A stretch of 43,669 nt of DNA from Rhizaria sp. SCN 62-66 (lineage: Eukaryota): positions 62,001-105,669 of the forward strand of contig MEDY01000051.1 in the NCBI GenBank assembly GCA_001724265.1, in the 5' to 3' direction. Under the pieces are notes generated by a model. It had not been told where the DNA came from. It saw only the letters and a program-made list of their open reading frames with translations, and did not search any database. The first letter of the stretch is position 1; the number at the start of each line of letters is the position of its first letter. Positions 6,762 through 30,554 of this stretch are shown here, piece by piece. Both the position numbers and the translations under genes were made by a program.

Positions 6762-7270
6762 GTGTGGCTTGTATGGCAAGACGGATTCGCCCTTGTTGCG
6801 CACCTAGAACAGATGTCAGCGTGATATGGGCTTATATGGATATCTTTTAGATATAATTGTGGTAGTTATGGTTTGTATTATTATTGAAGTTTTACAATAC
6901 ACGCTGGCTTGTCTCCTAAATCTGTTTGCCAAGCAGTAACAGTATTTATAACTCGCGTGACTCGTAGTCTCTGCGGCGATGCATCACCGTAACGGTCAAG
7001 AGGCAAAGTTTGAAATTGAGGACCCTCTGAATGCCACACAGAGACCATCAGGCTAAATTCTAGCTTCTTAATTATGCCACGCCGTCAATGTTTGTTCTAT
7101 CAATTAAATTATATATTCATATACGCTCACTTTCCTGTACTTTCACGTGTTTTTTTCATCTCAGAGCCCTTCCACTTGCTCTCGAATTGCCAGTCAATCT
7201 CTTGTTTGCCCCACACTTAAACAGCACTTTCCAACGCGCCATACTGGCCGCGCGTGTTTATCAACGCATT

Positions 7271-10052
7271 ATGTCGTACGCTCGCCCCATGGGTGTTCGC
7301 CGTGCCGCGGATCAGAGCTCCCTGCGCAGCTCGGGCGCCATGCATTCGTCCTCAGCCTCCTCAGCTCAGACCCAATCCCTGTCGGCCGCCGCTGCCGCGG
7401 CCTCGGGCCCCAGCGCGGTGCTGGCCGTGCCGCACTCGGGCGGCAACATTTACCGCGACTCCTAGACGCTGAGCCACGACCTGCTGCAGCTGAAGCGGCA
7501 GTACACAACGCTGGTGCAAGACAACTCGTACCTTAAGGCACAGCTCCAGCGCCTCGCCTCCGTGATCAAGAAGAAGGACGGGCAGCTGCAGCAGGTGCTC
7601 GGCGCCGGTCCTGCCGGTGGTGGCGCTGCGGCTGTTGCGGGCCCGGGCGGCGCTGGCGGCGCGAGGGGCATCGGCGCCCCTATTGGCAGCACTGCCTCTG
7701 GTACGTCATTTCCGTCGACTCCAACTATAAGCACGAAGTTGTGTATATCTCTCCAGGAATATAGAAGATCGTACCAACACTTGGTTTTCACATATATTTT
7801 GCCTATTTATATAGTGGTGCTACACGCATTTGTTTTTTTAGTTCATTAATCACCAGATATCCCCTAATCTTAATATCCTTTTGCTCTTGTGTTTCTCAGC
7901 CCTCGAGGCGACCGAGGACGAACGCCGGCTGCAGCGCCTGAAGCAGGAGCTCATGTCGATCGGCGTGCTGACCGAGCGCGTGCGCCTGCTGGAGACAGAG
8001 CTGGCGCAGAAGGACGCCGAGACGCGTGCGCTGCGCGCGGCGTCGAAGCAGTCTTACGTGCGCGAGCTCAGCGCAGAGGCCCAGATCTACTACAACGAGG
8101 CGCAGCGGCTCAAGAAACTGCTGGACAATAAGATCTACATGTACTCCGCCGTATACGCGCAGTCGCAACAGCAGCAACAGCAACAACAGCATTAGCAGCA
8201 ACAGCCGCAACAGCAGCAACAGCAGCAGCAGCAGCAGCAGATGAAGAGCAGTGGCAGCCGTGTCCGTTTCTCCGACAAGAACGGTACCGACCCCAACCGC
8301 GCCGTTAGCAGCGACCGCAGCAACCCAGGCTCGCCCCGTCGCAACGGCGGCAGCGGCGGCTCTGGCGCGTATAGCAACGACGGTGGCGACGACATCAACG
8401 TCTCTGGTTTCCCTCACGACGACGACACTGACCGCGGCCACGGCCACAGCCACGGCCATAACGTCGACGACATCGACGACGACATGCACGGCCACCGCGG
8501 CCACAACGGCAACAACGACGACGACGTTGCGTACGGCCCCTCGCAGCACGGCAGCGGCGGCCCCGGCCCCAGCGGTCGCGCGACCCCCTCCGACAGCAGC
8601 AACAGCAACGATGGCGGCGGCGTCGCGTCTGCGTCTGCGTCGGCCGCGGCGCGCAGCCAGGCGCGCGCGCACGCCCGCGAGCTGGCGGCGCTCGAGGCGC
8701 GGCTGCAGGCCGAGATCCGCCGCGAGCGCGCGCGCGCGGCCGAGCGCGAAGGCGAGATCTCCCGGCTCCAGGACAGGCTCACGCGCGCGCAGCGCGAGGC
8801 GGCCGAGCTCGACGACGCGGGCGCGCGGCTGGAGCTGCTGCTGGCGGAGCGCGACGAGAGCGTCACGGAGCTGCAGAGCAAGAATGCCGTGCTGCAGCGC
8901 GCGCACGCGGGCGTCGTGGCCGAGGCCGCGGCGCTCAAGCAGCAAGTCGCAGTGCTCGAGCAGTTCAAGCGGTCCATGGCGCAGTGGTCAGACGTGCTCG
9001 CCACGGCCTCCGCTGCCACTGCGGCGGCCACGACGACAACGACGACGGCGGCGACGGCCACATCTTCACCGGCACCGGCAGCGAGTTCGCAGCCACCGGG
9101 GCCGCCCGGGCTCGCTGCGTCGTTCGCCAGCGCTGACCCACACGCCCACAGCAGCGCGCACTCGGGCGGCGCGAAGCAGCACTCGCTGACCGCCGGCTCG
9201 AGCCACCCGCCCGCTGGCCCCGGCTCCGGCTCGGGCTCTAGCCTTCCCCCCAGCTCTGGCTCCGGCTCCGGATCCTGGAAGTCGAGCCCGTTCTTCGGCC
9301 GCGTGAGCGCCGCAGTGACAACGGCGGCGAGCGAGATCAAGACCAGCGTTGACTCGGAGGCCGCGGCCGCGTCTGCAAGGGCTAAGGCCGACGCTGACGC
9401 CAAGGCCAAGGCAGATGCAGAGGCCAAGGCAAAGGCTGACGCTGATGCTAAGGCTAAGGCAGATGCAGATGCCAAGGCAAAGGCTGACGCTGACGCCAAG
9501 GCCAAGGCTGAGGCCAAGGCGAAAGCCAAGGCGGCTGCGGACGCCAAGGCCAGAGCTGAGACGGAGGCCGCCGCTGCTGCAGCCAAGATGAGGGCTGCGG
9601 CCGACGCGGCGGCTGCAGAGGCGAAGGTTGAGGCCGAGGCACGGGCTAAGGCCGAGGCGGCGGCGAAGGCAAAGGCTGAAGCCGACGCTGCTGCGGCTGA
9701 AAAGGCCAAGGTTGACGCCGAGGCGCAGTCTTTCGCAGAGGCTAAGGCCAAGGCCAAGGCTGAGGCTGACGCCCTTGCCGCGGCCGCTGAGAAGGCGAAG
9801 GCTGACGAGGAGCACGCCAAGGCCAAGGCCGAGGCCGACACCAAGGCCAAGGCTGAGGCGGATGCGAAGGAGGCCGAGAGCCGGATGTTCGACGTCAGTG
9901 CGATCATGGACAACGACGACGTTTTCAGCGCCAAGGTGACCTCCAACAGTGCCGGGGGCAAGGTGATTGTGAACGGCGGCGGTGGCATCGGTGAAGAGGT
10001 TGAGGAGGACCTGGGCATGGAGATGGAGCTTGAACTGGACGAGACAGTTTAA
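7271..10052 (+). CDS. IQCE-like N-terminal coiled-coil protein with polyQ and Ala/Lys/Asp/Glu repeat tail (~860 aa if two in-frame TAGs are read through)
   Basis: Exons 7271-7700 and 7900-10052 with a phase-1 intron (G|GTACGT ... CTCAG|CC). In-frame TAG at 7463-7465 and 8193-8195. YRDS*TLSHDLLQLKR...KKKDGQLQQVL and ERVRLLETELAQKD...YYNEAQRLKKLL resemble, from memory, the IQCE segments YREKEDMYDEIIELKK...RKDRQIEQLL and YYEEVHRLQTLL. Terminal stop is TAA. Confidence 0.75.
8160..8240 (+). repeat. CAG/CAA polyglutamine tract containing one TAG codon
   Basis: CAA CAG CAG CAA CAG CAA CAA CAG CAT TAG CAG CAA CAG CCG CAA CAG CAG CAA CAG CAG... all in one frame. Confidence 0.9.
9380..9870 (+). repeat. 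Coding tandem repeat (AKAKADAD / AKAEA units)
   Basis: Repeated GCCAAGGC.AAGGCTGA units translate to AKADADAKAKADAEAKAK... Confidence 0.85.
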
Positions 10053-10362
10053 GAATAGCAACTACTCCAATCCAAATTCAAATTTATTTGAACAAACTTG
10101 CTGACGTGATCGTTGATATTTAAAAGTGTTAGACTGTATTATTATGATCATAAGCTTACGTATTTAATACGCAACAAGTTAAGAGCACACTTGTTAGTCG
10201 TGCTAACATATTTGATTAGAAAGAAAGAACAATGTGAGAAGCACAGACCCGTGTCTTCAAACTAAAATTTACCTAGAATTGAAACAATAAACAACATGAT
10301 TACAACTCATAAACTATAGCATGACGTTTGTTGAATAACAATACCATTTCTGACGCAATTCG

Positions 10363-10404
10363 TGTAAGTTCACACGATGACTGTTGTAAGTTCACACGAT
10401 GACT
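10363..10404. repeat. Perfect 20-bp direct repeat (22-bp period) just downstream of the NO66 stop
   Basis: TGTAAGTTCACACGATGACT at 10363-10382 and 10385-10404. Confidence 0.9.
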
Positions 10405-10432
10405 CTGGGGGGTTGAGATGACTGGCGCGAGT

Positions 10433-13400
10433 TCACTTGCGCTTGCTGCGCTTCTGTGCGCCGGAGCCGGTGGACCGCTGGCGCAGCGAGGCCATCTCGG
10501 CGTCCAGACTGGCGTCAAGGGCCGAGTCGGCGCGCTTATGGGCCTTGCGCGCGGCGAGCGCAGCCTTGAAAGCCGAGAGGATCTCCATCTGCGCGCGCGG
10601 GCCGAGTTGGACGTTGCCTTCGTCATCCTCCTCGTCCTCATCGTTGTCGTCGTCCTCGCTGTCGTCGGCGCCGGCCTCCTCTTGGTTGCTGTCCTCGTCC
10701 TCTTCCTCGTCATTGTCGCCGTCCTCGTCCTCGTCCTCGGACATGATCTCACCGACCTCGTCCTCGTCCTCGTCCTCGCCGTTGCCGGCGAACTCGGCGT
10801 CCTCCTCGTCGTCCTCGTCCTCGTCGTCGCCCAGGTCGTGCATCTCGGCGTTCATCTTATGCCCGACCTCGCCGTCCACCGTCACCTCGATCAGGCCCTT
10901 AAGGTAGAGCTCGCACACGAACCAGTGCAGGAACATCTTCTTGATGCGCTTCGTGATGCGCGGCTGCGACGAGCCCTCGCCGTCCTCGTCCTCGTCCTCA
11001 TCAGCGTCCTCGTCCTCGTCCTCGTCCTCGTCTTCGCCGTCGCCGTCGCCGTCCTCGCCCATGAGCGCGAAGGGCAGCTCCGAGTCGAACTGCGTGGCCG
11101 TGTGCAGCATCGCGCCCCAGTCGAGCTCGATCTCGTCCACGCGAAGGAAGCGCGGCGCCTCGGTCAGCAGCTGCCGGAACGCAGTCAGCGTCGTGATCGG
11201 GAACGATAGCGGGTTACACAGCGGGTTGAAGTACGGCTTGTACAGCTCGCCCGACATGGCCTCGGCTTCAGCGGCCTCGGCGGCCTCGTCGTCCTCGTCC
11301 TCGTCGCTGTCCATGCCGCCGGCATCGACCTCATCCTCGTCTTCGTCCTCGTCACCGTAGACGGCGCCGTCCATGCCCTCGGTGTCGCCGGAATGAACGA
11401 AGTCCTCGTCGTCCTCGTCCTCGTCCTCGTCCTCACCGGCTGCGCGGCGCGCGACCTCGGCGTAGCGCGCGTAGCGGTCGCGCTTGTCTGCGCTGCTGAG
11501 CACGCCCGCGCCGCCGACCATGTGCGTGCGCCGGTCGTTGAGGTCGGCCGAGTAGACCGAGACCTGGACGCGCGAGGGCGGCAGGTTAGACATGTAGTAC
11601 ATCGTCTTTTCCGTAGCGCCGCCGGCCTCGCCGTCCTCATCCTCGTCCTCGTCCTCGTCCTCATCGTCGTCGCCGCCGGCCAGCTTGGCGAGAGCGGCCT
11701 TCTTGGCGGCCTTCTTATTGGCCTGCGCGCGCTTGATGTCCGCGATGGACGCGAAACCGTCCTCGTCGGCGCTCACGGGGTCGCTGTCATCGCCGTCGTC
11801 CTCGGCAGCAACGTCATCATCCTCATCCTCATCCTCGTCTTCGCCCTCATCCTCGTCCTCATCCTCGTCCTCGTCCTCGTCGTCCTCGGACTCGGCCTCG
11901 ACGACGGGCTCGACGGCGACGGTGACACCGTCGGGCGACTTGAGGCGGATGCACGAGCTCATCTTGATGTGGCGCAGCACGTTGTACACCTCAACCATGG
12001 GCTGGCCCGCGGTCGCACTGAGCGCCACGGGCAGCATCATCGCCAGGTCGTCGTTGGTCTCGCTGTCCTCCTCGTCTTCGTCTTCGTCCTCGTCCTCGTC
12101 GAACGCGACGCGATCAACGCCGTCCTCGTCCTCGTCCTCGTCCTCAGCGTCGGCATCAACGTCCTCGTCCTCATCCTCGTCCTCATCCTCGTCCTCGTCC
12201 TCGTCGGACTCGTCGTCCGAGTCGTCAGGGCGGTAGTAGTCGGGCTTGGGCAGGCGGTGCAGCGCGAAGTCGCGCTGCAGCTCGTCGGCCGCGGCGTGGA
12301 TGTTGACGTGCTCGGCGAGCGCGCGCAGCCACGACTGGACCTTGTCGGCGCAGAAGGTCTGGCGCAGCGAGCGCAGGTAGTCGCGCTGCTCGGGGTTCAC
12401 GTTGCCCGCGCGCAGCCAGAGCCGGTTGTGGTGGCCCGTGTCGTCGCCCATGACGCGCAACGGAATCGACGGCGCGTACTGAGACATGTCGTCCTCGTCC
12501 TCGTCGGGGTTGAACTCGTAGTCGCTGCTCTCCTCTTCCTCCTCGTCGTCGTCGGCAGCAGCGGCAGCCTTCTTGCCCTTGGCGATAACAGCCTTGGAGA
12601 CGGCCTTCTTGCCGCCCTTCTTGCCCGCAGCGCCAGAGTCGGAGTCGTCCGAGTCGGACACGACTTCCTGGAACTCGGCGTCGTCGTCAGAGTCGGCGGA
12701 GGCCTTGTCGCCCTTCTTGCCCTTCTTGGCGTACTTGTTGTTCTTGCCGGCCTTAGCGTCGGGTTTGACGCTCACGGTCTGCGTCTTGCTGCCCTTCTTG
12801 AGCAGGTTCTTCTTCTTGTACACCGTCTCCTCGTCCGAAAGCTCGAAATCAGAGTCGATGTCGACGTCCTCGTCGCCCTCCTGCGGCGCGAGCGAGTCCA
12901 GGTCGATCTGACCCTGCTCGTCGTCCTCTTCCTCCTCCTCCTCGTCCTCGTCGCCGCCGTTGGTGCCGGCCTGCTCCTCGGCGATGATGCCCTCCGCCGT
13001 CACGGCCGCGTCGTGCACAGTGCCCAGGAAGGCGCCGTAGTTGAGCGGCAGCGCGCGCTTGATGCTGGGATCGGACTGCTTGAGTCCCTCGAGCGCGGCC
13101 GTGAGCGCGACCGAAAGTAGTGACGCCCAGTTGCTGCCCTGCGCGCACGAGATCGTGAGGTGCGACGACAGGCAGTCGGCCTGCGTCACGGCCTCATGGA
13201 TCACGCCGCGAGGCAGGTACAGCAGGTCACCTGCCGACAGCGTGATCTCCGCCGTCGGCTCGCCGAGCGACTCGCGCGGGAGATCACCAGAGCAGCGCTC
13301 GGCGAGCTCGTCGATGGGCCGGTACAGGCGCCACGTCTTCCGGCCCTCGAGCTGGCAGACGAAGACCTCGACGTCGTCGTGGTGCGGCGCGAGCCCCTGC

Positions 13401-15181
13401 GAGCCGGGCGGTGTGATGTAGCAGTTGGCGCCGACGAGTCCACCAAAGAAGCGCTCGAGCGCGTAGAGCGTGCGCCACACGGCCTTGCTGTGCTGCTGCG
13501 GGTGCAGCGCCTGCAGCGTGCAGCCCACGCGCAGCATGTCCGACGCGCTGTGCGTCGTCACCAGCTGCCGCGCGCGCTCCTGTTCGTCGTCGAGCGCCTG
13601 CAGCTTCTCCAGCGCCGCGCGCAGCGTGAGCCCCTGAAGCGCGTCGTCGACGGTGCTTTGCGAGAGCGCGTCGTCAAGGCTCTCGTCCTCAGCGTCGTCG
13701 CCCGCGCGCGGCACGTTGGCCGAGCCCAGGTCCGGGATGGGCTCCTCCTCGGGGTCCTTGCCCTCCTTGCGCATCGCGCGCACGGCGCGGAGCAGGCGGC
13801 GCATCATGACGTCTACGCCGCGCGCCGTCGGGTTGGAGTGCGGGTTCATGTCAATCTTGACGCCGTCGGCGTTCATCACGCACGCCTCGACGTTCTTGCC
13901 CCACAGCATCGCGCCGTGCGCGCCGGACTCGGCCTCGGCGGCCGCGGACCCGTCGCCGACGCCCGCGAAGACCTCGCGCGCCGTCGTCGCGCCGTCGCGG
14001 CCGTCGATGGCGGACATGGCGCCCAGCGCGCCCTCGGGGTGGCTCGGCCGCAGGGCCGCCTCGGCCTCGGCCACGTGCGCGCGCGCCTCGTCCAGGTACT
14101 CCTGCGCCTCGGTATACTTGGAGTACACGCGCTCGACCTCGGCCTTAGAAGGCATGCCCGCGCGCTTCTTGCTGGCCGCCTTGGAGCCCTTCTTGGCGTC
14201 CTTCTTGGCGTCCTTGCCGGCCTTCTTGCTCTTGGCCTCGCCCTCCTCCTCCTCCTCGTCGTTGTCGTCAGAGGAGCTGGCGTCGCCGTCGAGCGACTTG
14301 CCCAGCGTGAGCCGCTCGAGTGCGGCCCACTCCTCGGCCGACTCGGCGGCCGCGGCCTCGACCTCGGCGAGCATCTGCTTGGCCTCGGCCAGGCGAGCCA
14401 CGGCCTTCTCCTTGCGCGCAACGGCGTCGAAAAAGGCGTCGATGCCGTACAGCCCGGCGAAGTAATCCTTCTTGTCACGCTTGACGTACAGCGGGCGCTT
14501 CTCCCAGTACTGCGTGAAGAACTGGTCCACGGTGAGGGGCGCGATGAGCGCGGAGAAGACGAGGTTGGGCTCGCCGTAGTCGACGCAGGCCATGAAGTCG
14601 CCAGATTCGGGGTGCTCGTGGTCGTGCGCGGCCGCGCGGGCCTCGTCGTCCTCGTCCTCGTCCTCGTTGAGGTCCTGCAGATCGGCGTCGTCCATGTCGT
14701 CGACGTCCTCGTCCTCGTCCTCCTCCTGGGCGGACTCGGAATCGGAGTCCTTCATCGCGGCGGCAGCCTTGCCCTTCGCGGTGGCAGCCTTGGCGGACTT
14801 CGAGGGGGCAGCGGCGGCGGCAGCGGGCTTGGCGGCGGACTGGCTCTTGGCCTTAGCCTTGGCGGCGTCGGCGGCGGCAGTGAGCTTCGCGATCGCAGAG
14901 GCAGCGGCCTTGACGTTGGCATCGTTCGCAGCAGCCTTGGCAGCGGCGGCAGCGGCAGCCTTGGAGGCAGCAGCAGCCTTCTCGGCTTTAAGCACGTCGG
15001 AGCGGCTCGCAGTGGAAGGGATGAGGTCGGGCACGTCGTCGCTGTCGTCACCGGAGGCATGTTTGTTGCCCTTGCCCTTGGTGCTGGACTTGCCGGGCTT
15101 CGCAGCAGCGGTGGGGGCGGCAGCGGCGGGCTTGGAGCCGCCGTGCGCCTGCGGGGGAGAAGGCTTCTTCCCCTTGGACAT
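10433..15181 (-). CDS. RIOX1: NO66/RIOX1-family JmjC ribosomal oxygenase with very large Asp/Glu and Lys/Ala insertions (~1582 aa, single exon)
   Basis: Motifs LIAPLTVDQFFTQYWEKRPLYVKR, GCTLQALHPQ, LVGANCYITPPGSQGLAPHHDDVEVFVCQLEGRKTWRLY, LSAGDLLYLPRGVIHEA and SSHLTIS. The HxD...H iron triad is intact. ATG at 15181, stop TGA. Confidence 0.9.
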   Translation of the reverse strand: MSKGKKPSPPQAHGGSKPAAAAPTAAAKPGKSSTKGKGNKHASGDDSDDVPDLIPSTASRSDVLKAEKAAAASKAAAAAAAKAAANDANVKAAASAIAKLTAAADAAKAKAKSQSAAKPAAAAAAPSKSAKAATAKGKAAAAMKDSDSESAQEEDEDEDVDDMDDADLQDLNEDEDEDDEARAAAHDHEHPESGDFMACVDYGEPNLVFSALIAPLTVDQFFTQYWEKRPLYVKRDKKDYFAGLYGIDAFFDAVARKEKAVARLAEAKQMLAEVEAAAAESAEEWAALERLTLGKSLDGDASSSDDNDEEEEEGEAKSKKAGKDAKKDAKKGSKAASKKRAGMPSKAEVERVYSKYTEAQEYLDEARAHVAEAEAALRPSHPEGALGAMSAIDGRDGATTAREVFAGVGDGSAAAEAESGAHGAMLWGKNVEACVMNADGVKIDMNPHSNPTARGVDVMMRRLLRAVRAMRKEGKDPEEEPIPDLGSANVPRAGDDAEDESLDDALSQSTVDDALQGLTLRAALEKLQALDDEQERARQLVTTHSASDMLRVGCTLQALHPQQHSKAVWRTLYALERFFGGLVGANCYITPPGSQGLAPHHDDVEVFVCQLEGRKTWRLYRPIDELAERCSGDLPRESLGEPTAEITLSAGDLLYLPRGVIHEAVTQADCLSSHLTISCAQGSNWASLLSVALTAALEGLKQSDPSIKRALPLNYGAFLGTVHDAAVTAEGIIAEEQAGTNGGDEDEEEEEEDDEQGQIDLDSLAPQEGDEDVDIDSDFELSDEETVYKKKNLLKKGSKTQTVSVKPDAKAGKNNKYAKKGKKGDKASADSDDDAEFQEVVSDSDDSDSGAAGKKGGKKAVSKAVIAKGKKAAAAADDDEEEEESSDYEFNPDEDEDDMSQYAPSIPLRVMGDDTGHHNRLWLRAGNVNPEQRDYLRSLRQTFCADKVQSWLRALAEHVNIHAAADELQRDFALHRLPKPDYYRPDDSDDESDEDEDEDEDEDEDEDVDADAEDEDEDEDGVDRVAFDEDEDEDEDEEDSETNDDLAMMLPVALSATAGQPMVEVYNVLRHIKMSSCIRLKSPDGVTVAVEPVVEAESEDDEDEDEDEDEDEGEDEDEDEDDDVAAEDDGDDSDPVSADEDGFASIADIKRAQANKKAAKKAALAKLAGGDDDEDEDEDEDEDGEAGGATEKTMYYMSNLPPSRVQVSVYSADLNDRRTHMVGGAGVLSSADKRDRYARYAEVARRAAGEDEDEDEDDEDFVHSGDTEGMDGAVYGDEDEDEDEVDAGGMDSDEDEDDEAAEAAEAEAMSGELYKPYFNPLCNPLSFPITTLTAFRQLLTEAPRFLRVDEIELDWGAMLHTATQFDSELPFALMGEDGDGDGEDEDEDEDEDADEDEDEDGEGSSQPRITKRIKKMFLHWFVCELYLKGLIEVTVDGEVGHKMNAEMHDLGDDEDEDDEEDAEFAGNGEDEDEDEVGEIMSEDEDEDGDNDEEEDEDSNQEEAGADDSEDDDNDEDEEDDEGNVQLGPRAQMEILSAFKAALAARKAHKRADSALDASLDAEMASLRQRSTGSGAQKRSKRK

Positions 15182-15671
15182 TCTAATCAAGTAGCAACGA
15201 GGGGTAATGAAAGCAAACGGGAGAGGTGAGACGGTATGCATGGAGCGGAAGCACGTGGGGGCCAGGTCAGATTGAGGAAGGAGTCGCGAATGTGGTGTTC
15301 GGCCTTGGAGATTTGAGGATTAAAAAGCATATCCAAAGAAATGCCGTAAATAGATGTAATGCAAAAGAACATGGGCACATCTGTCAATCTGTTTCTTTAT
15401 CAGTTTGATGGGCATGTATAGCAAGATCATGTCATGTCCGTGACGGTGGACACCCGCGAAACCTGTTTGAGTGGGCGGGCGAGCCCCACAGTCGCAATCA
15501 CCATCTAGCAATTTGTGGTCAAACCACGTTTATCTGCATATCTTTGTCAAGAAAGTAGAACTACGAGTTAACGTTATAACATCAAGATAAATAAATACAA
15601 CATTCTTTTATATCTAACTATTATAAATGAATACATCATAATCCTTCGTCGGTATAGTGAGTACACACTCA

Positions 15672-18600
15672 TCACCGGTACCCCACTTTGCCGAGCGCGG
15701 CGGCTGCCCGATCAGCGCCATGTGCCGCCACGAGCGCGTCAGCCGCGGCACGCGCCGCGGGGAGCGGCTGCACTGCGAAGCTGCCCAGCGGCGGCGGCGC
15801 GCTCCTGTCGAGCGCCACGGCAGTGAGCGCCAGTGACGACGGCACTGGCGATGACTGGCTTGACTGGGAGGACTGGGAGCCGGAGTGCGAGCGCGAGGCT
15901 GAGTGCGACAGCGTGAGCTGCGCAAGCGGCGAGCTGGGCGACGCCGGGGAAACGGGGGAGACTGAGGAAGAGGGGACAGGCGCCGCACTCCAGTGGCCCT
16001 TCGCAACGTCGGCCGTACTAGCGGCAATACCGCTGGCTCCGTTTACAGCAGAGTTTTGAGATGATGTTAAGTCGGAGGCTGAACGGCTCGGAACGGTGGC
16101 ATCAAGATCGCTCATTGCCTACATTGCACGATCGTCTGCGCCATTGTCGTCGCTATGGTCGTCACTCTCCGTCTCGGTGCACTCTTCCTCGTCCGCTGTG
16201 TTTTCGTCGTCCCCGCTCTCCACCGACGCCGACGGCGACGCCCTCAGACCGGGCGCCGCCGCCTTGGCCGCCTCCGCCGCCGCGGACTCAATGCGGCGCT
16301 GGCGCATGTCCTCGCGGCGCTCGCCGCGGTCGTCGACGTAGTTGCCCTGCGGGTCGCGCGGCGCCGTCTTGAGCCCCGCGCCGCGCGCAAAGACGCCGCC
16401 GCCGAGGCCCTGCACCAACCCGGGGGGCAGGTTCGCGCTCGCCAGGCTCGTGGTAGCCGGGCTCGTGTTTGTCGGACTCGGACTCGGACTCGGACTCGAA
16501 CTATAGTCGGCGCCCTGGCCCGCGCCGCCGGCCACGGCAGAGCTGGCAAGAAAGTTCCCTCCCGCTGCCGACGGCGACCGCGCGGTGGCGCTGATGCCAA
16601 TCGGCGGCGTCGTCGCGGTGTTGACGTTGACGTTCAGGGAGCCGGCGCCGCCGCTGCGAGGCTGCGCGACGACTTGCGCCCGCAGCCGGTCGAGCGATAT
16701 CCGAGAGGGGTCCACCGTCGGCAAGCCTCCCAGCGAGCCGCCACCGCCCGCGGCGGCTGCCGGCGCAACGGCCGCTGCAGCTGCGGCGGGCGCAGCTGCG
16801 GCGGGGTGCATGTAGCTGTGGCTGTGGCTGCGGGCCCGCGCAGTGGCGTTGGCGGCCGCGACAGCGTCGGGCTCGCAGGCGCCGCCCACGGGGTCAGCGG
16901 CAGCGGCAGCGGCAGCGGCTGCGGCCGCAGAGGCGGCCGCCGCAGCGGCTGCCGAGGGGGCCGCTTTGCTACTGGCGCGCGCGTGCGCCGCGGCTAAGTG
17001 ATCCATCGGGCCAGCGCCGGCCTTAGCTCGCGCCCGGCTTAAGGCCTGAGTTGCCGCCGCCGTCGCTGTTGCCGCCGACTCACGGCGACTGCTTCCGCGG
17101 TCGCGAGTGGCGCTGCGATCGTCAGAGTCGCTGTCACTGTCGCCGATAATGTCAGCGGCAGGAGTATTGATCGCGCCCATCGCGGCGGTGTCAAGATTCT
17201 GGCCGCGGTCGCGGCCACGGAATACGCGACCAGTCGTGAACGGCGGCACGGGCACCAGTTTGAACGCCACAATGCGGTTCTTTGCTTGCCACTCACGCTC
17301 GCGGTCGCCCAGCGCTCTGGCGTCGAGCCCCAGTCCGAGGCCGCGGCCGAGCCCCACGGCGCGGCTGCGCGTCCCGGCGGGCAGGAGGGCGTAGCTCGCG
17401 TGCGGCATCGTGGCGGCGTAGGCGTTGAGCTCCTCTTCCGACGGGAGCATTACGCCCGTCACGGCCTGGCTCACACCGCCCCACTCGTCCCCGGGCGCCT
17501 GCCCAAGCTGCGGCGCCGCGGCGGCGGCCGCGGCGGGCTGCTGCCGGAGCGGCGCGCGCGCGACGAGACAAGGGCCCGGCAGCCGGATGCGGTTGATGCC
17601 GTGCCACAGGTTGTACTCTATTTGGCTCTTGTCCGTCGCCAAGCTCCCAGCAACCTTGTCGTCGACGTCCCGCGCGCGGGCCAGCAGCGCGCGCGCGCTG
17701 TCCCGCGCCTCGGTGGCCTCGCGCAGCGCCACCGCGCACTTCGCGACGTGAACCTGGGTGAGGTGCAGCGACTGCCGGGCTTCTTGCAGGGCTTGGCTCG
17801 CGGCGGCGTGCACAGCCACGGCTGCTGACAAGGCAGAGTTGCTAATGCCTTTCTGTGAACGCGCTGCTTGAAGCTGCTGTTTGGTTTCAATCTCAGCTTG
17901 CTCGGCAGCAGCCATGTTTGTGCGCGCTCTGTGAAAGATGGGGGAGAAGGCAAGAAAGGGGTTTGAGTGGAGAGTAATTTAGACATCCGACAAGTGAACA
18001 ATACAAATACATAATACTAAAAACAAGTTATGTTGCATTTATCGTGTGATTCAATATGATAGACGTACATATCAACTGTTTTGACGGCTTCAGCCTGCTC
18101 GACAGTATAATCCTTGACAGTCCCCTTGAAGAAGCGTGCCTGCCTCACAATGAGCGCGCGGCGCGCAGCTACTGACAGCAAGTGCCAGCGCTTTGTCGCC
18201 ACAAGATCGCGCTGGACCTCGACATCGCGCGCCATGTTAAGCCGGCGGGCGAGGTCAAGCACGATCGAGTCGATATCGCCAATCAGCTGCATGTCGAACC
18301 CGCCCGCGCCGTAGAGCACGACGGGCCCAGATTTGCGGTCGTCGCGGCCGCTCTGCTTCTGCTGCATAGCCAGCTGGAAATTAAGGTGTTTCTGGAAGTC
18401 TGACTTCGGCATGACGTCGTAGCCCGGCAGCGCGACGGGCTTGTGGTTGATCGCGACCACGCGCGCGTTGCGGGAGAGACGGTGCGGGAGCGCGCGCGTC
18501 GGGAACGCCTCGAGGGAAGAGCCGATGATGAGGACGAGCTTCACAGCGTCACGGTCCTCGTAGTTGTCAATGACGTCGACGCCGGTCATGGGGTTGTTCC

Positions 18601-21600
18601 TAAAGCTCTGCGGGAATGGGGCAAGATTAGGGATCATAAGACCCTTGCACTTGCACACGACTCCGGCCGTGTCGTCACTGTCATCATCGTCGTCATCATC
18701 GTCAGCGTCGTCGTCGTTTTCGCCCATCTCGCTCACGATGGTGATGTCACGCGCGCGGGTGCTCTTGCGGGTGCCGCTTGGGCCGCCGCTGGCGTTGCTC
18801 TTGATCACGCGGCTCTGCGCAGCCGCAGCGCTGGCCACGTTGTTTGATACGTTGTTTGACGACGCAAAGTACGAGTTTGATGAGGACGGCGCCAGAGTGT
18901 CTATGAGTCCACTGGACACAGACTGATCCACGTTCGCGTCATTAGGCTGCTCACTCTTGAATCGACTGCCGTAGCCGGACTCGGCTAATGTCGCACGGTC
19001 AGGCTTCTTAACAGTGACAATCATGCAGTCGACATCACTCTCACTCTCGATTTCGCTCTTGCCGCCCTGCTTGCCCCTCGCGTTATTGTTCTTCATCGCA
19101 GCCGCAAGCCGCGGACGCTTGCCGCTGCTGCCTTTCTCGTCATCATCACTATCATCGTCGCTCGAGTCAATGACGATCGGCCCCTCAAGCCCACCGCCCT
19201 GTTGGGTCAGCGTGATGCTGATGCGGCTCATGGCCAGCGCGGACCGCTGCGCCAGCCCACCGTGCTCAGCGACAAAGCCGTCCTCGCCATCAGCAGGCGC
19301 ACTGGTGCCATGTGAAGACGAAGAGGAGTGCGCACGCTTGCGGTTGTTAAGCTCTGCAGCGGCGCCACCCCCCAGGATTGAGTCCTTATACTTGTCAGAG
19401 ATGCGTGAGCCGCTGTAGACTTGTTCTGTCACCTTGACCGAGGGTGTGCTTAAGACTGCGCTGAAAATAGAGTTACTGCCGCGCTTTCGGGCCTTCTTCT
19501 GCTCGAGCCGAGCGCGCCGGGCTTCGGCAGCAACGGCCGCACATGTGACACACCCCAGAGGCTTGCCGTCGCCGCCACTGTTCTGAGCGTCATCAGACCC
19601 AAGAAGCAGCTTGGTCACAGCCTCCTTGTCCGGCTGGACGACACAGCTGCCGCGCGAGGCCACGCCGCCTGTACCGGAGAAAACCCCTCGGTCGATCACC
19701 GAGCCGTCATAGGCGCGGTGCGACTTGGAGCAGCGGAACGTGCTGAGACTGCCATTGCAGCGCACGAGCATCGACTGGCGCACCAGCGCCTCGGCCTCCA
19801 GGTCGTCCATGTTCTCTGTGTAAACGCGCGTGATGATCGAATCTTTGGTGTTAGACAGCAGCGACACGAAGAAGTGCGTGAACGACGGCAACACGAAGTT
19901 CTTGCGACGCAGCGCTGCGAGGTCGCGCACGAGTTGCTGGAGCTGCTGCTGCAGAGCGGCGCGCGCTGCGGGGTCCTCGCTCGTGGCCTTGTTGCTCAGC
20001 ATGCGCGTGATCTTAGTCTCCCAGGGCTCCGCGTCGGCGCCGGCAACGCCTCCGCTCGAGAGCGCGCCTGCGCGAACGATGCTGTTGGCGAACGAGCGGA
20101 AGAAGGCATAGGCCGGCCACATGCTAATAGGATTGGCGCCGCTTTCCGCACCTTGTGACATCCCTTTCTCGGTATCACTGTCACTTTCGCTTGCGTTAGC
20201 GCCCGCGTTGAGCTTGGCGACACCGTCTGTGTCGAGCGGCCTCGCCAACATGTTCCTGGCATCAGTTATGCGTGCCTTGTTCACGAACTTGCGCGCTTCA
20301 ATTTGTTCTGGGGAGCGAGTTGAGTCACTCCTGAGAGTGCTGTCATTCGACTCATCATCGGACACAGTACCTCCACAGAACTCAACGTCGGCAGTGGTCA
20401 CGTTCGCGGTGTTAAACTCTTGCAGCGGCATCTCCGTCCCCGGGTTTACGCCGCGCCTGAGTGTAAACGTCGCGATGCCGGTGCTGGCGCTGACCCCCGG
20501 CCCGAGGATGACGGCGACCGCGCGCTTGGAGCCCGGCCGCGACACGCTGCGCTTGTCGTCTTTGTCCTCGCCAGCGCCACGCTCGCGGTCCGCGCCGAGG
20601 CGTGAGAGCGTGCGCGGGTCCCGCATCGCGGCGACGAGGTCGTCGATTGACGCCAGGCCGCCCCTGTGCGGGGCGCGGTACGACTCATCGACCTTGCACA
20701 CGGGGCACATGAACTCGTGGTCGCGGTAGAACCGGAGGTCGTCGGGCGTGATCGGGGGCTCCACGCAGAAGCCGTGGAAGGACTGGTTGCACATGTCACA
20801 CAGGATGAGGTCGCCGGTGTTGCCGCACTTGGTGCAACTTTCGTTGTTAATGGATTTAAAAACAAAGTTAACATTGTTCCCATCCTCATCGTCGTCATCA
20901 TTATTGCTATCAGCGCTGGCGCTCTTGTCGGCGCTCTTGTTCTTGCTCTTACTTTTAGCTTTAGTCGACGCCTTAGCAGGCGCCTTCGCGGCAGCCTTAG
21001 CCTTGTCACTCGTCTTCGACTTCGTCTTGTCCTTGTCACTGCCACTGACAGGCTTGCTCTTCCCGCGACTCGAGCTGGAGCTGAAGCTGGAGCTGAAGCT
21101 GGAGCTCAAGCTCGACTTAGTAGAGCTCGAGGTCGAACTCGAGCCCGAGCGAGAGCTAGACGACTTCTTAATCGAGCTAGAGCCCGCGTCGGCAGCGCTG
21201 ACAAAGGAGCTGCTGGGTTGCGCCGAGGAGCGAGCCTTGGCCTGAGGCTGCTCAGGCGGGGCCTCGACCTTCACTCGGACTTCACCGCCGTCGCTGCGCC
21301 TGTTCTTGTTCTTGTCCTTGTTCTTGTCCTTGCTCGTGCCCTTGCTCGTGCCCTTGTCCTCGTCCTTGTGACTGGCCTTATTTGCGGTCTGTTTATCACC
21401 GCTGCGGCTACTAACACGACTATCCGCGAGACTGCTGCTGGCGCCGGCGCTGGCGCTGGTGCTGGCGGCGTTGTTGCGACCGCGCTCGCTGGTACTGCTG
21501 CGAGAGCTCTTGGCGTCGCTAGTGACAGCCGACTTGCTTGCACTGCCGGCCTTGTCCTTGCCCGACGCCTTGCCACTGGCCTAACCTTTGCCGTAATCCT

Positions 21601-22033
21601 GACCCTTGCTATAGTCATTACCCTTGCTGTAATGAGCGTTCTTGCCCTGCGGCCTGGCGTCCGTGGGCAGACGTGCGTTCTTCGCGTTGCCATTGTCAAT
21701 ACCCTTGCCTTTGTTCTTGCTCTGGCGCTGCGCACTGCCGGGCCAGTGCTTGCTGGGCCGACGGTCGTCGTAGTCGCTCCAGCGGTCGCTCTCGTCGTCG
21801 CTGCCGCTGCTACTGCCGCTGCCGCTCTCGATATCGATATCGCTCTCTGTGCAGTCGTCGCTGCTGCTCACGCTGGGGCTGCGGGCGCGACTGCGGCCGT
21901 GCGGACGGTGACGACTGCTGCTGTTGCTGCTGCTGCTGCTGCTGGTCTTGCCGTGGCCGCTACGACTGCGATTACTGCCACTACCGTGATGACTGCGAAT
22001 ACTGCCACTGTTGTCATTGTTACGGTTGTTGCG

Positions 22034-22066
<33 letters not shown>

Positions 22067-22603
22067 GCGGCTTCCGCTGCTAGCGGCAGGGGTGCTCTTG
22101 CTCTTAATGCTGTCCTTGCGAGATGTCTTAGAAGTGCGCACATAGGTTGAGCGCACATCAGAATCAGACTCAGAGCACAAGTCGAGTTCGGAGTCGGAGA
22201 GAACGACAAGGTCACTGTCGTTCGAGATGTCGTTCTCGTCTGTCGTGTCCGTCATCCTGCGCGGGGGCTTTTGTGGCTGTTGTCGCAAAGGCCTTGCCTG
22301 GGTTGCTGAGGACGAGGATGATGATGAGGGGCGCGCATGCGAGCTCTTGATGCTTTTACTGCTGCTGCTTTGGCTGCTGTCTTTCTTGCTGCTGCGACTG
22401 GTGCTGCTGTTGTCGCCGCTGCGGGACGCCGAGAGGGAAGACACCATTCCTGAGCGTTCCTCCCTGTTCTTGCTCTTATCAGCTTTCTTGTCCTTTTTAT
22501 CACCCTTGGTAATTGACGAGGAGGAGTGGCGACTGCGAGCCGGGACATCGTCGGATTCAGACTCGCTCACGGTCTATGTTCGAGTCACCTTCGTGCGTGG
22601 CAT
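15672..22603 (-). CDS. PHD-finger + degenerate Sir2 (sirtuin) domain protein (~2263 aa if three in-frame TAGs are read through; 2 exons)
   Basis: ATG at 22603 (MPRTKVTRT*TVSESE). Exons 22603-18069 and 17928-15672 with a phase-2 intron (AT|GTACGT ... CACAG|A). In-frame TAG at 22574-22576, 21581-21583 and 16119-16121 join listed ORFs in one frame. C4HC3 PHD at 20696-20836. Sirtuin-like motifs GPGVSASTGIATF, PSFTHFF, YTENMDDLE, CNGSL, IIGSSLEAFP, INHKP, FDMQLIGDID. Stop TGA. Confidence 0.8.
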
Positions 22604-23592
22604 AATTACAGAATGTGCCCGCGCAGAGAAAGATGCTGCGACGGCTGGCTTGACAACAAATGTCAAATATGCGTCAGTAGAAGTCGATACGTTCTGCGCA
22701 GTTGATAAGGCCGAGGTGAGAAGCGGAGCGGAGGAAGGAGACCATTGTTGGTAGTGTTAACAACATTTGATTAATATAAATATATGGAAATGTCGGCGTT
22801 AAGCGTGTTGCTGTGTGATGCACTTAATGGACGGAAGCCTTGTCGAGTTTCATTCACTCCATATTCCAAGAGCTTGATAGGAATAGGATGTGGTCTGAGC
22901 GGGCGCTGGGCATCTGTTCAAATCGAGACTTTCAGCGGATACATAAGTGTAAACATTGCAGATCTAAATGATTATCTAGTATAATATAACAAGCACTACA
23001 GAAAACTTGAAACCAATTGTAAAACCCAAGTTAAAAACATTTACGTTGAGATATTCTGACAATGGATGTAGGCTGCTCGACAGTTCCTGGACTTGAAGAG
23101 ATGTGCTTCGTGATGTTCTTTCGCGACAGTTCGAATAACAACTTAAAGGAAGAGGCATTTAACACAAATATACTTAGTGGATTCGTTTTTAGACGACGCT
23201 TGTTCGTTTGATACGCTGTTTGCATATCATGATTGACTCTTGCGTTATTGCGATGCTGGTTGAGTCATCATTTGTTTATTGGTTGTTTTACTTAATCGCA
23301 TCTGACCATGCATATGGCCTTTATCCATTCTGCTCTTCAAGTCAGAATCATTTTGGAAAATGCGGTATTTACTTCTTTTATCGTGCGTTCTTCGAGTACA
23401 TCGATCGGTGCTTTTTTCGGAGGGGCATCCACTGCCCACTCCTGCGCTATCATTCACGTGCTTTGCAGCGGAAGATGAGGCAAATAACAACATTGGATGC
23501 AACACACGCACGAATATATCTCTTCACTTGTTAAATTCAGCTAGTCAAACGTACACGTAACAAACTCCTCGTATACATAACAATGTCGACAC

Positions 23593-29500: not shown

Positions 29501-30554
29501 CAGCGGGCGCGGTGCGGAGCGTCAGGAACACTGGCGCGGGCTCGGGGGCGCGGCTCGTATCCCAGCCACTCCGGGCGGGGCGAGCGCTCTTGGCGCGCTC
29601 TGTGGCAGCCGCGGTCGCAGCCTGACGCGCAACCATTGCGGCGGTCATAGCGGTGACTGTCGACGCAGCGCCGGAGGACGCGGTGGGCAGAGCTGTACGA
29701 GCAGTGTTCGAGTCGATGGAGGTCGACACGAAGCCAGTCGTGCCCAGGTTCGTGGTCGTACTACTGCTCGCGTTCTTGTCCGCCAAGGGAATAATGCTCG
29801 GCTTAGAGCGCGTCAGGAAGGAGCGCTTGTTGTCCGAAGCGTCCACAGCAGTCGTGGTGTTGCCGTTGTTAGAGTCGGCGCCCGTGGTGCTCTGCTGGCG
29901 AGCGCGAGAAGCAGCTGTCGGGGCTGTCAGTGATGACACACGGCCACCCGACGCAGACGGGGGGCGCGCAGGCGCACCGACTGCCGCCGTAGAACTGGCG
30001 GCGGCGGCAGGAGCCGAAGAAGCAGCGAGAGAGGCAGATGCCGACTTGGTGCGAGAGCCAGGCATCGGAGTGGGGGCTGCGTAAGGCACGGACACAGCGA
30101 TGCTCTTGGGACCAACAGTCAGCGTCTTGGAAACCGGAGAAAAGTCACCAGTAGCCGTCTGCGCGCCGTTACTATCATCTTCATCGTCGCTGGGAGGTAG
30201 GAGGAAGTCAACTGTGCGCGCGCACTGCTTCTTCACAACGGCATCGTTAACGACGGTGACCTGGAAGGGGACGCCAGAAGCATCAGCATCATAGCCTTCG
30301 GTCACTGCGCGGCGCACACGAGTCTTAGAACGTGGACGTGTGGGCTTAGTAAGGGTGGATGCGTCGTTATAAGCAGTATGGAGGAGGACAGAGTTGGAGG
30401 TGTCGGCCTTGACACGGGCCAGGGGCACGCGGCTCGAGCCAGGCGGAAGTGAGGCTGCCGACGCGGAAACAGGTCCGCGCACAGCCGACGTGCCTCTAGA
30501 AGAATCCACGGAACGCTTTCCGAGAGATCCGTGTGATTGCGACATGTCAGACAT
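23593..30554 (-). CDS. ASPM: ASPM/abnormal-spindle-like protein: 2 calponin-homology domains, IQ motifs, C-terminal ARM-like region (~2278 aa, 2 exons)
   Basis: Exons 30554-27633 and 27507-23593 with a phase-0 intron (CAG|GTGCGT ... TTTTAG|GAG). ASPM-type motifs GFGVWLNSLL, LLACYAPQWL, LDSFDFT...ELASGIRFAKL, GDRAHTLALLWRL, LLLHWCQTV, VDNFTSSFSDGVVLCLIINYYYP. IQ motifs LQRAWR, IQRGVR, VQRWFR, LQSAWRG. Stop TGA. Confidence 0.85.

What the first reader, a model, noticed from the sequence alone, without database searches (positions are those of the whole stretch)
7463..22576. Probable variant nuclear genetic code: UAG read as glutamine, UAA/UGA still stop
Seen: five TAG codons interrupt otherwise continuous GC-rich reading frames in two genes on opposite strands (7463-7465 +, 8193-8195 +, 16119-16121 -, 21581-21583 -, 22574-22576 -). 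There are no frameshifts and no internal TAA/TGA, and all nine complete genes end in TAA (6) or TGA (3), never TAG. The downstream contexts differ (ACG, CAG, GCA, GCC, ACC), so there is no shared leaky-stop motif. Known: UAA and UAG are nearly always reassigned together in nuclear codes; UAG-only cases are rare (e.g. Iotanema spirale UAG=Gln, the rhizarian exLh UAG=Leu, some phyllopharyngean ciliates). Inference: this GC-rich protist decodes UAG as Gln, possibly an independent reassignment. I cannot identify the organism, so novelty is unproven.
Basis: partly seen in the sequence, partly recalled or inferred. Interest (0 to 1): 0.95.

Follow-up and report, generated by a model that had tools for sequence, protein, structure and literature searches.

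The report
UAG read as sense codon
An unidentified GC-rich microbial eukaryote from wastewater reactors seems to translate the stop codon UAG as an amino acid while still stopping at UAA and UGA, a rare kind of genetic-code change, and the one informative site points to glutamate rather than the glutamine first proposed.

Summary
They lie in frame in two spliced genes: gene1 (7271-10052, +) and a PHD-SIR2 gene (22603-15672, -). In 10,043 modelled codons there are 5 in-frame TAG, 0 TAA and 0 TGA. All 8 complete genes end in TAA (5) or TGA (3).

Evidence that the TAGs are read through:
- GC falls to 0.29-0.46 in the 150 nt after 8 of 8 terminators, but stays at 0.55-0.69 after 5 of 5 TAGs.
- Codon-usage scores favour the TAG's own frame on both sides.
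- Homologues are continuous across TAG 7463, and one is collinear across TAG 8193.
- No other base was listed at the four TAGs covered. Four runs were laid and at least one covers each of these sites. A second study covers 7463 and 22574, and its poly(A) RNA contig spans 7463. TAG 8193 was not checked.

My reading is that UAG is a sense codon (about 0.82). The residue is open. The only conserved column is Glu in 10 of 11 homologues and never Gln, while TAG 8193 sits in a polyQ run. I could not reach a tRNA(CUA), eRF1, the rest of the genome or the taxon.

The parts
7463..7465 (+). In-frame TAG, codon 65 of gene1. It sits in a conserved column that is Glu in 10 of 11 homologues.
   Evidence: No other letter listed in DNA contigs X2 and X4 or in poly(A) RNA contig X5 record 25, which spans 7413-7678.
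8193..8195 (+). In-frame TAG, codon 242 of gene1, inside a CAG/CAA polyQ run that also holds one CAT and one CCG.
   Evidence: Homologue P0180 is collinear before and after this position. Not checked in reads, because the tool skipped 8157-8252 as a repeat.
7271..7700 (+). gene1 exon 1 (ATG at 7271), encoding an IQCE-like coiled-coil protein.
7701..7899 (+). gene1 intron, 199 nt, GTACGT...CAG, 36% GC.
   Evidence: Exon 2 homology with P0178 and P0180 confirms the join.
7900..10052 (+). gene1 exon 2, ending in TAA at 10050-10052.
22574..22576 (-). In-frame TAG, codon 10 of the PHD-SIR2 gene.
   Evidence: The 42 codons between this TAG and the next ATG score as coding in this frame (0.32 bits/codon, other frames negative). 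X4 record 24 covers the site with no other letter listed there.
21581..21583 (-). In-frame TAG, codon 341 of the PHD-SIR2 gene.
   Evidence: The first Met after it is residue 263 of the downstream ORF, inside the PHD finger at residues 249-295. X2 record 7 covers the site with no other letter listed there.
16119..16121 (-). In-frame TAG, codon 2115 of the PHD-SIR2 gene, 148 codons before the tandem TGA TGA.
   Evidence: The coding signal after it is weak (0.03 bits/codon overall, 0.14-0.19 in the first 75 codons). X2 record 5 covers the site with no other letter listed there.
18069..22603 (-). PHD-SIR2 gene exon 1 (ATG at 22603).
17929..18068 (-). Predicted 140-nt intron, GTACGT...CAG, 36% GC. 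It contains the ORF-closing TAG at 18019-18017.
   Evidence: The splice is inferred from sequence. No spliced RNA contig was seen.
15672..17928 (-). PHD-SIR2 gene exon 2, ending in tandem TGA TGA (15677-15672). GC then falls to 0.29.

Best explanation
In this organism UAG is decoded as an amino acid, and only UAA and UGA terminate translation.

The inferred mechanism is the usual one for UAG-only codes. A tRNA with anticodon CUA pairs with UAG but not with UAA, and eRF1 has weakened recognition of UAG. Neither component was seen here.

Shown: the five TAGs lie inside coding sequence that continues in frame, and no other base was listed at the four covered by reads. Inferred: how they are decoded and which residue is inserted.

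On the residue, given sense decoding, I put Glu at about 45%, Gln at about 40% and anything else at about 15%. UAG is rare: 5 of 10,043 codons, in 2 of the 7 genes counted there (the eighth, FAR-DHAPAT, showed no stops). This fits a young reassignment or strong codon bias.
For: 1. Frames. With GT-AG introns removed, gene1 (861 codon positions) and the PHD-SIR2 gene (2264) are open apart from TAGs at positions 65 and 242, and at 10, 341 and 2115.
2. Stop counts. 10,043 modelled codons hold 5 TAG, 0 TAA and 0 TGA in frame. In the other five frames of the long ORFs, TAA plus TGA run at about 7-33 per 1000 codons.
3. Composition. The 150 nt after 8 of 8 TAA/TGA terminators are 0.29-0.46 GC. The 150 nt after 5 of 5 TAGs are 0.55-0.69 GC.
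4. Coding signal. A codon-usage log-odds model trained on TAG-free genes ranks the TAG's frame first on both sides of each TAG wherever the flank is long enough. The 9 codons before TAG 22574 and the 15 polyQ codons after TAG 8193 do not rank first.
5. Homologues of gene1. 11 homologues align without gaps from before the TAG 7463 column through the coiled coil. P0180 matches gene1 before TAG 8193 (48% identity, E 2e-16) and after it (E 7e-4).
6. PHD finger. The first Met after TAG 21581 falls inside the PHD finger, so translation must come through that TAG.
7. Reads. No other letter was listed at the four TAGs covered. X4 and X5, from a different study, differ from the window at 14 listed positions, and X4 covers TAGs 7463 and 22574 with no change there. 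X5 (poly(A) RNA) has depth 0 in two intergenic bins where X4 has 6.9 and 6.1, and its contig spans TAG 7463 with no change listed there.
8. Polymorphism. Both differences that lie between the two gene1 TAGs are synonymous third-position changes.
9. Terminators. 0 of 8 genes end in TAG.
Against: - Only five codons in two genes support the reading, and four of them lie in low-complexity sequence.
- No tRNA was found in the window, and no eRF1 or further genome was available.
- The all-TAG pattern is expected 14% of the time from random nonsense mutations.
- The coding signal after TAG 16119 is weak. Its score of 0.03 bits/codon is reached or beaten by 3.4% of off-frame windows, and 22% of off-frame 148-codon windows are free of TAA and TGA.
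- The 18068-17929 splice is predicted, not observed.
- TAG 8193 was not verified by reads.
- A sample of 0 of 8 TAG terminators is small.
- The 20.8-kb relative locus L001 has no in-frame TAG in its 8 long ORFs, so the trait is not shown to be shared.
- The two residue clues disagree: a Glu column at 7463 and a polyQ run at 8193.
Confidence: 0.82

Rival explanations
1. One reading: UAG encodes glutamine, as in NCBI table 15 or Iotanema, through a tRNA-Gln(CUA) derived from tRNA-Gln(CUG). This is a sub-case of the best explanation.
For: TAG 8193 lies inside a CAG/CAA polyQ run. TAG is one transition away from CAG. Homologue P0182 also has a Q-rich stretch after the second coiled coil. Gln is the commonest meaning among published UAG-only cases: Iotanema, Hartmannula, Trochilia and Protocruzia (passages of PMC11687900).
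Against: The only conserved column, at TAG 7463, is Glu in 10 of 11 homologues, Ser in 1 and Gln in 0. The Glu set includes a 63-68% identical relative whose flanking residues are identical. The polyQ run already tolerates His and Pro, so a TAG there says little about its meaning.
Confidence: 0.33
2. The standard code applies. The TAGs are genuine premature stops in decaying genes or nonsense alleles, or the gene models are wrong and the flanking open frames are GC-rich non-coding sequence.
For: Random nonsense mutations in these genes would be TAG 67-69% of the time. 22% of off-frame 148-codon windows are free of TAA and TGA. Four of the five sites lie in low-complexity sequence. TAG 7463 could be a G-to-T nonsense hit in a Glu codon.
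Against: - There is no frameshift and no TAA or TGA in 3,123 codons, and both introns keep GT-AG and the frame.
- The coding frame signal and high GC persist past every TAG, whereas GC drops after 8 of 8 real terminators.
- Homologues cover both sides of both gene1 TAGs.
- Starting after TAG 21581 would cut the PHD finger.
- TAGs 7463 and 22574 are unchanged in a second study's contigs, which differ from the window elsewhere, and TAG 7463 is in a poly(A) RNA contig.
- From general knowledge, a pseudogene old enough to carry 2-3 nonsense hits should also carry several frameshifting indels. This is inference, not a measurement.
Confidence: 0.07
3. UAG has a dual meaning or is leaky. It still terminates some genes and is read through at these sites, either by context-dependent stop/sense decoding (as in Condylostoma or karyorelict ciliates) or by near-cognate suppression.
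For: UAG is very rare (5 of 10,043 codons). The region after TAG 16119 has only a weak coding signal, so that TAG could be a partly used terminator. Only 8 gene ends were sampled.
Against: 0 of 8 genes end in TAG. The bases after the five TAGs share no motif. TAGs at codons 10 and 65 would make inefficient readthrough very costly. GC stays high after TAG 16119 and then drops at the tandem TGA TGA.
Confidence: 0.08
4. The TAGs are assembly or sequencing errors, or RNA editing restores a sense codon.
For: The window is a metagenome contig. TAG 8193 lies in a repeat that the read tool skipped.
Against: Four of the five sites are covered by contigs of other runs with no other letter listed. This includes a second study for 7463 and 22574. 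The RNA contig spanning 7463 has no change listed there, so no editing is seen at that site.
Confidence: 0.02

Closest known systems
UAG-to-Gln with UAA and UGA kept as stops: Iotanema spirale (Fornicata), and the ciliates Hartmannula sinica, Trochilia petrani and Protocruzia tuzeti. Seen in passages of PMC5304391 and PMC11687900. I recall this as NCBI table 15.
   Same: Only UAG appears in frame. UAA and UGA terminate. The predicted decoder is a tRNA with anticodon CUA.
   Different: The one conserved TAG column here is Glu, not Gln. UAG is far rarer here, occurring in 2 of the 7 genes counted, against 78-91% of genes in the ciliates. The genome has about 70% GC exons and 125-345-nt GT-AG introns. 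From recall, that is unlike ciliate genomes.
The uncultured oligohymenophorean ciliate of PMC10553269 (UAA = Lys, UAG = Glu). Seen in its search-listing title and the start of its abstract, and in a passage of PMC11687900.
   Same: UAG alone may mean Glu, which implies a tRNA-Glu(CUA).
   Different: In that ciliate UAA is also reassigned, to Lys. Here UAA is the commonest terminator (5 of 8) and never occurs in frame.
UAR = Glu codes: Blastocrithidia nonstop (start of abstract of PMC12153298) and peritrich ciliates (recalled; NCBI table 30).
   Same: A stop codon may be read as glutamate.
   Different: Those codes reassign UAA and UAG together, and Blastocrithidia also reassigns UGA. Here only UAG is affected.
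The rhizarian exLh (UAG = Leu; passages of PMC5304391) and Scotinosphaera (UAG = Ser; passage of PMC11687900).
   Same: Non-ciliate eukaryotes with UAG-only reassignment. In exLh the terminators were UAA (56) and UGA (15) and never UAG, the same pattern as here.
   Different: The residues differ. The conserved column here is Glu in 10 of 11 homologues, Ser in 1 and Leu in 0.

Membership tests
UAG-only stop-to-sense nuclear code (any residue) | In-frame UAG inside genuine coding sequence, with homologues continuous across it | tested here: met
   Five TAGs in two genes. 11 homologues span the TAG 7463 column. P0180 is collinear across TAG 8193. The coding frame signal holds on both sides.
UAG-only stop-to-sense nuclear code (any residue) | UAA and UGA never occur in frame and serve as terminators, and UAG is never a terminator | tested here: met
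   0 TAA and 0 TGA in 10,043 codons. 8 of 8 gene ends are TAA (5) or TGA (3). The sample is small.
UAG-only stop-to-sense nuclear code (any residue) | A cognate tRNA with anticodon CUA | not testable with these tools
   No tRNA gene in the window or in L001. No whole genome is held.
UAG-only stop-to-sense nuclear code (any residue) | eRF1 altered in its codon-recognition motifs (GTS, NIKS, YxCxxxF; listed in PMC5304391) | not testable with these tools
   eRF1 is not in the window, and the rest of the genome could not be reached.
UAG = Gln (table 15 / Iotanema type) | In-frame UAG aligns to conserved Gln columns | tested here: not met
   One informative column only: Glu in 10 of 11, Ser in 1, Gln in 0. 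The polyQ context of TAG 8193 is compatible with Gln but not diagnostic.
UAG = Glu | In-frame UAG aligns to conserved Glu columns | tested here: inconclusive
   Met at the single informative column. The other four TAGs lie in unalignable low-complexity sequence.
UAR = Glu codes (peritrich / Blastocrithidia type) | UAA reassigned together with UAG | tested here: not met
   0 in-frame TAA, and TAA ends 5 of 8 genes.
Context-dependent stop/sense code | The same codon also terminates genes | tested here: inconclusive
   0 of 8 genes end in TAG. Eight genes are too few to exclude this.
Programmed stop-codon readthrough | A shared downstream motif or structure, with one site near the gene end | tested here: not met
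   The next triplets are ACG, CAG, GCA, GCC and ACC. The sites are at codons 10, 65, 242, 341 and 2115.
Pseudogene | Frameshifts, mixed stop types and loss of coding signal | tested here: not met

The most novel reading that the evidence does not exclude
An unrecognised, GC-rich eukaryotic lineage reads UAG as glutamate while keeping UAA and UGA as stops. From recall, that combination is not among NCBI's tables, and my three literature searches turned up no report of it.

The lineage is marked by a roughly 30-residue insertion and a distinctive C-terminal tail in proteasome subunit alpha-7.

The code would be caught at an early stage, with UAG making up 0.05% of codons. A 66%-identical relative (L001) shows UAG neither as a terminator (0 of 8 long ORFs) nor in frame. 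That would fit a codon-capture route in which UAG first disappears and then returns as a sense codon.
Probability: 0.3. Interest if true: 0.88.

Novelty: new member of a known kind. Interest (0 to 1): 0.78.

Why it matters
UAG and UAA nearly always change meaning together. The passages I read list only a handful of nuclear cases in which UAG alone is reassigned.

A further case in a non-ciliate, GC-rich, compact genome found in reactor metagenomes would add an independent data point on how the two codons are uncoupled. Because UAG is still rare here, it could show an early stage of the process.

If the residue is Glu, the code itself would be new.

There is also a practical point. Standard gene callers cut this organism's proteins at TAG: P0177 is gene1 truncated exactly at codon 64.

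Tried and rejected
- The genome search 'own' returned that no genome is held. The record behind L001 is not held either.
I did not use the look-up of encoding contigs, which is marked closed.
- tRNA scans of the window and of L001 found none. Rfam at gathering threshold found no match in the window.
- Pfam found no family in the TAG-flanking segments.
- The search for related loci with the PHD-SIR2 ORF in metagenome contigs found 593 pattern matches but no relative.
- The search for homologous proteins with the whole PHD-SIR2 protein returned only the window's own ORF plus one 3%-coverage PHD hit. The three minus-strand TAG columns therefore could not be aligned.
- The search for related loci with PSMA7 in metagenome contigs returned 80 loci, of which only L001 is close (66%). 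In genome contigs it returned only archaeal proteasomes, and in viral contigs nothing.
- Read laying: the listed long 'joints' have 20-24-nt sides in low-complexity repeats, and I treat them as artefacts. No spliced RNA contig was seen across 7701-7899 or 18068-17929. Stretches without X5 cover are not used as evidence.
- The protein-atlas search on PSMA7 returned only generic proteasome clusters and gave no taxonomic help.
- Taxon naming through cluster members gave no placement. The nearest named PSMA7 (70%) is a sequence in the EukProt Yihiella yeosuensis transcriptome set, which may come from a co-cultured organism. The nearest named FAR-DHAPAT proteins are from Phytophthora (32-34%). The gene1 homologues carry no organism names.
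- I did not use structure prediction, fold search or complex prediction, because no claim here depends on them.
- I did not consult supplementary tables of the code papers, so per-codon counts there were not seen.


Full report
**What the window is.**
The 43.7-kb window has no N. Its composition is sharply two-state: long blocks of 60-71% GC alternate with 35-46% GC spacers. The GC-rich blocks are exons of eukaryotic genes. Pfam finds JmjC, PHD + SIR2, CH/IQ, FAR + DHAPAT, proteasome alpha and GNAT domains. Short AT-rich stretches inside genes are GT-AG introns with a recurrent GTACGT donor. That word sits at GC-drop boundaries at 7701, 42802, 34894, 34233 and 18068, and also at 2041. One further intron starts GTGCGT.

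No whole genome is held. Word matching finds the sequence in reactor and wastewater metagenome runs of several studies and in a poly(A) metatranscriptome. X1 may be the source. X2 and X3 gave identical records and may be one data set filed twice.

**Gene models.**
Removing the predicted introns gives 8 complete genes:

| Gene | Exons | Strand | Terminator |
|---|---|---|---|
| A | 1216-2040, 2217-6761 | + | TAA |
| gene1 | 7271-7700, 7900-10052 | + | TAA |
| JmjC | 15241-10433 | - | TGA |
| PHD-SIR2 | 22603-18069, 17928-15672 | - | TGA TGA |
| CH/IQ | 30554-27633, 27507-23593 | - | TGA |
| FAR-DHAPAT | four exon blocks, 36144-31469 | - | TAA |
| PSMA7 | 36992-37834 | + | TAA |
| L | 41386-38471 | - | TAA |

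The four FAR-DHAPAT blocks are collinear with roughly 1200-residue fusion homologues and contain no stops. Two TAGs that close long ORFs under the standard code, at 18019-18017 and 34863-34861, fall inside introns.

The 18068-17929 splice is predicted only. It rests on a GTACGT donor, a pyrimidine-rich tract before CAG, and frame preservation. No spliced RNA contig was seen.

**The observation.**
They are codons 65 and 242 of gene1 and codons 10, 341 and 2115 of the PHD-SIR2 gene. Across 10,043 modelled codons there are 5 in-frame TAG, 0 TAA and 0 TGA. By contrast, the other five frames of the long ORFs carry TAA plus TGA at about 7-33 per 1000 codons.

One caution applies. Given the codon usage of these two genes, 67-69% of random single-step nonsense mutations would be TAG. 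The all-TAG pattern alone therefore has a probability of about 0.14.

**Are the TAGs inside translated sequence?**
Five independent lines say yes.

1. GC step. The 150 nt after 8 of 8 TAA/TGA terminators are 0.29-0.46 GC. The 150 nt after 5 of 5 TAGs are 0.55-0.69 GC. The two ranges do not overlap.
2. Coding frame signal. I trained a codon log-odds model on the TAG-free genes. It ranks the TAG's own frame first in every flanking segment long enough to score:
   - 0.40, 0.40 and 0.50 bits/codon around the gene1 TAGs
   - 0.21 and 0.52 around TAG 21581
   - 0.32 for the 42 codons between TAG 22574 and the next ATG
   - only 0.03 for the 148 codons after TAG 16119, with 0.14-0.19 in the first 75 of them

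   Two short pieces do not rank first: the 9 codons before TAG 22574 and the 15 polyQ codons after TAG 8193. TAG 16119 is the weakest site. Its score of 0.03 is reached by 3.4% of off-frame windows, and 22% of off-frame 148-codon windows lack TAA and TGA. Even so, that GC-rich block runs on to a tandem TGA TGA and only then falls to 0.29 GC.
3. PHD finger. The first Met after TAG 21581 is residue 263 of the downstream ORF, inside the PHD finger at residues 249-295. A protein that started after the TAG would lack half the finger.
4. Homologues of gene1. A full HMMER scan with exon 1 of gene1 returned 14 proteins. One of them, P0177, is the window's own ORF cut off at the TAG. I aligned 11 others and left out P0183 and P0184, which matched in 26 and 6 scattered stretches and looked like coiled-coil noise. 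All 11 run without a gap from before the TAG column through the coiled coil. P0180 (1013 residues) matches gene1 exon 2 both before TAG 8193 (residues 9-77 against 194-262, 48% identity, E 2e-16) and after it (303-435 against 438-588, E 7e-4). Both proteins end in a Lys/Ala-rich repeat and an acidic tail.
5. Reads. No other letter is listed at any TAG.
   - X2 records cover 7463, 16119 and 21581.
   - X4, from a different study, differs from the window at 12 listed positions and covers 7463 and 22574.
   - X5 is a poly(A) RNA library from that same study. It has depth 0 in the intergenic bins 6800-7353 and 22866-23400, where X4 has 6.9 and 6.1. Its contig spanning 7413-7678 shows no change listed at TAG 7463.
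   - An X5 contig that carries the variants at 15992 and 16138 probably also spans 16119. This is my inference from the table.
   - TAG 8193 lies in a stretch the tool skipped as a repeat, so it was not checked.

In addition, both differences between the window and the X4/X5 contigs that fall between the two gene1 TAGs are synonymous third-position changes. The PHD-SIR2 gene shows 1 synonymous and 3 non-synonymous changes, which is uninformative.

**Which amino acid?**
Four TAGs lie in low-complexity sequence and cannot be aligned. A search with the PHD-SIR2 protein found only the window's own ORF.

The fifth, TAG 7463, sits in a conserved motif ten residues before an invariant Lys. The column is Glu in 10 of 11 homologues and Ser in 1 (P0190), and it is never Gln. 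The Glu set includes P0178, a relative with 68% identity and 63%, whose four residues before and thirteen residues after the column are identical to the window.

TAG 8193 lies in a CAG/CAA run, which fits Gln. That run also holds a His and a Pro codon, both one step from CAG. It would therefore tolerate a CAG-to-TAG change whatever TAG means.

Published UAG-only cases are mostly Gln. Setting that prior against one strongly Glu column, I rate Glu at about 45%, Gln at about 40% and other residues at about 15%. This weighting is my judgement, not a computed result.

**Mechanism.**
By analogy with the cases described in PMC5304391 (passages), the decoder should be a tRNA with anticodon CUA. Such a tRNA reads UAG but not UAA, which explains why UAA stays a stop. 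It would work alongside an eRF1 with weakened UAG recognition. Neither could be examined: there is no tRNA in the window, no eRF1, and no access to the rest of the genome.

UAG is rare. There are 5 TAG against 484 GAG, 70 GAA, 250 CAG and 56 CAA, and TAG occurs in 2 of the 7 genes counted. The ciliate cases have UAG in 78-91% of genes.

**Rivals.**
- Pseudogenes or nonsense alleles. This is contradicted by the intact frames and splice sites over 3,123 codons, the persistent coding signal, the collinear homologues, the unchanged TAGs in a second study's contigs, and the presence in poly(A) RNA. It remains possible at a few percent.
- Dual stop/sense decoding or leaky readthrough. This cannot be excluded with only 8 gene ends. 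TAG 16119 would be the best candidate for a terminator that is sometimes used.
- Assembly error or RNA editing. This is excluded for the four covered sites at contig level.

**Relatives and taxon.**
The PSMA7 protein belongs to a set of environmental sequences that share an insertion of about 30 residues and a distinctive C-terminal tail. The nearest named member (70%) is filed in the EukProt Yihiella yeosuensis transcriptome set and may not come from that organism.

The only close genomic relative I could fetch is L001: 20.8 kb of a 214-kb contig, with PSMA7 at 66% identity and 53% GC overall. It has no in-frame TAG in its 8 long ORFs, and those ORFs end in TAA x6 and TGA x2 with no TAG. These are ORF-level readings with no introns modelled.

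Taken together, 0 of 16 gene ends use TAG. That hints that the wider group avoids UAG as a stop, but the sample is small and L001 does not show sense use.

The FAR-DHAPAT gene is closest to unnamed sequences (37-49%) and then to Phytophthora (32-34%). The lineage stays unresolved, so independence from the known UAG-only lineages is likely but unproven.

**Literature.**
Three full-text searches turned up no report of a GC-rich wastewater eukaryote with a UAG reassignment, and none of a UAG = Glu code with UAA kept as a stop. For the listed papers I saw only titles and the opening lines of abstracts. For PMC11687900 and PMC5304391 I also read passages. I did not see their supplements. NCBI table numbers are given from recall.

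**Verdict.**
The reading that UAG is a sense codon while UAA and UGA are stops is well supported for this window (0.82). The specific claim of glutamine is not supported by the one informative column, and glutamate is at least as likely. Everything rests on five codons. The tests that would settle it are a genome-wide tally, the tRNA and eRF1.

Noticed in passing
33986-34133 and 34667-34814 (minus-strand introns): A 148-nt repeat, 96% identical, sits in two consecutive introns of the FAR-DHAPAT gene. It could be an introner-like mobile element or an intron-hosted small RNA. Rfam at gathering threshold finds nothing in the window.
   Followed up: partly
36144-31469 (-): FAR (NAD_binding_4 + Sterile domains) and DHAPAT (Acyltransferase + GPAT_C domains) form one four-exon fusion gene. 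It is collinear with roughly 1200-residue fusion proteins from environmental sequences, Phytophthora, Acanthamoeba, Balamuthia and a ciliate. This would be a bifunctional ether-lipid starter enzyme.
   Followed up: partly
whole window: Composition is very two-state: exons are about 60-71% GC and introns and intergenic DNA about 35-46% GC. The donor GTACGT is near-invariant, and introns are 125-345 nt long.
   Followed up: yes
36992-37831 (+): Proteasome alpha-7 carries an insertion of about 30 residues and a conserved C-terminal tail. These are shared only with a set of unnamed environmental sequences at 57-86% identity, which could serve as a marker for the lineage.
   Followed up: partly
L001:1-20828: A relative's locus (PSMA7 66% identical, 53% GC) has 8 long ORFs ending in TAA x6 and TGA x2, none in TAG, and no in-frame TAG. 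This may indicate UAG avoidance in the wider group.
   Followed up: partly
15672-15677 (-): The PHD-SIR2 gene ends in a tandem stop, TGA TGA.
   Followed up: no
30554-23593 (-) and 1216-6761 (+): Two pairs of long ORFs that look like separate genes are each joined by a single intron. ORFs 27600-30560 and 23593-27507 form a 2278-codon CH/IQ protein. ORFs 1108-2154 and 2139-6761 form a 1789-codon protein with a weak ankyrin hit.
   Followed up: yes
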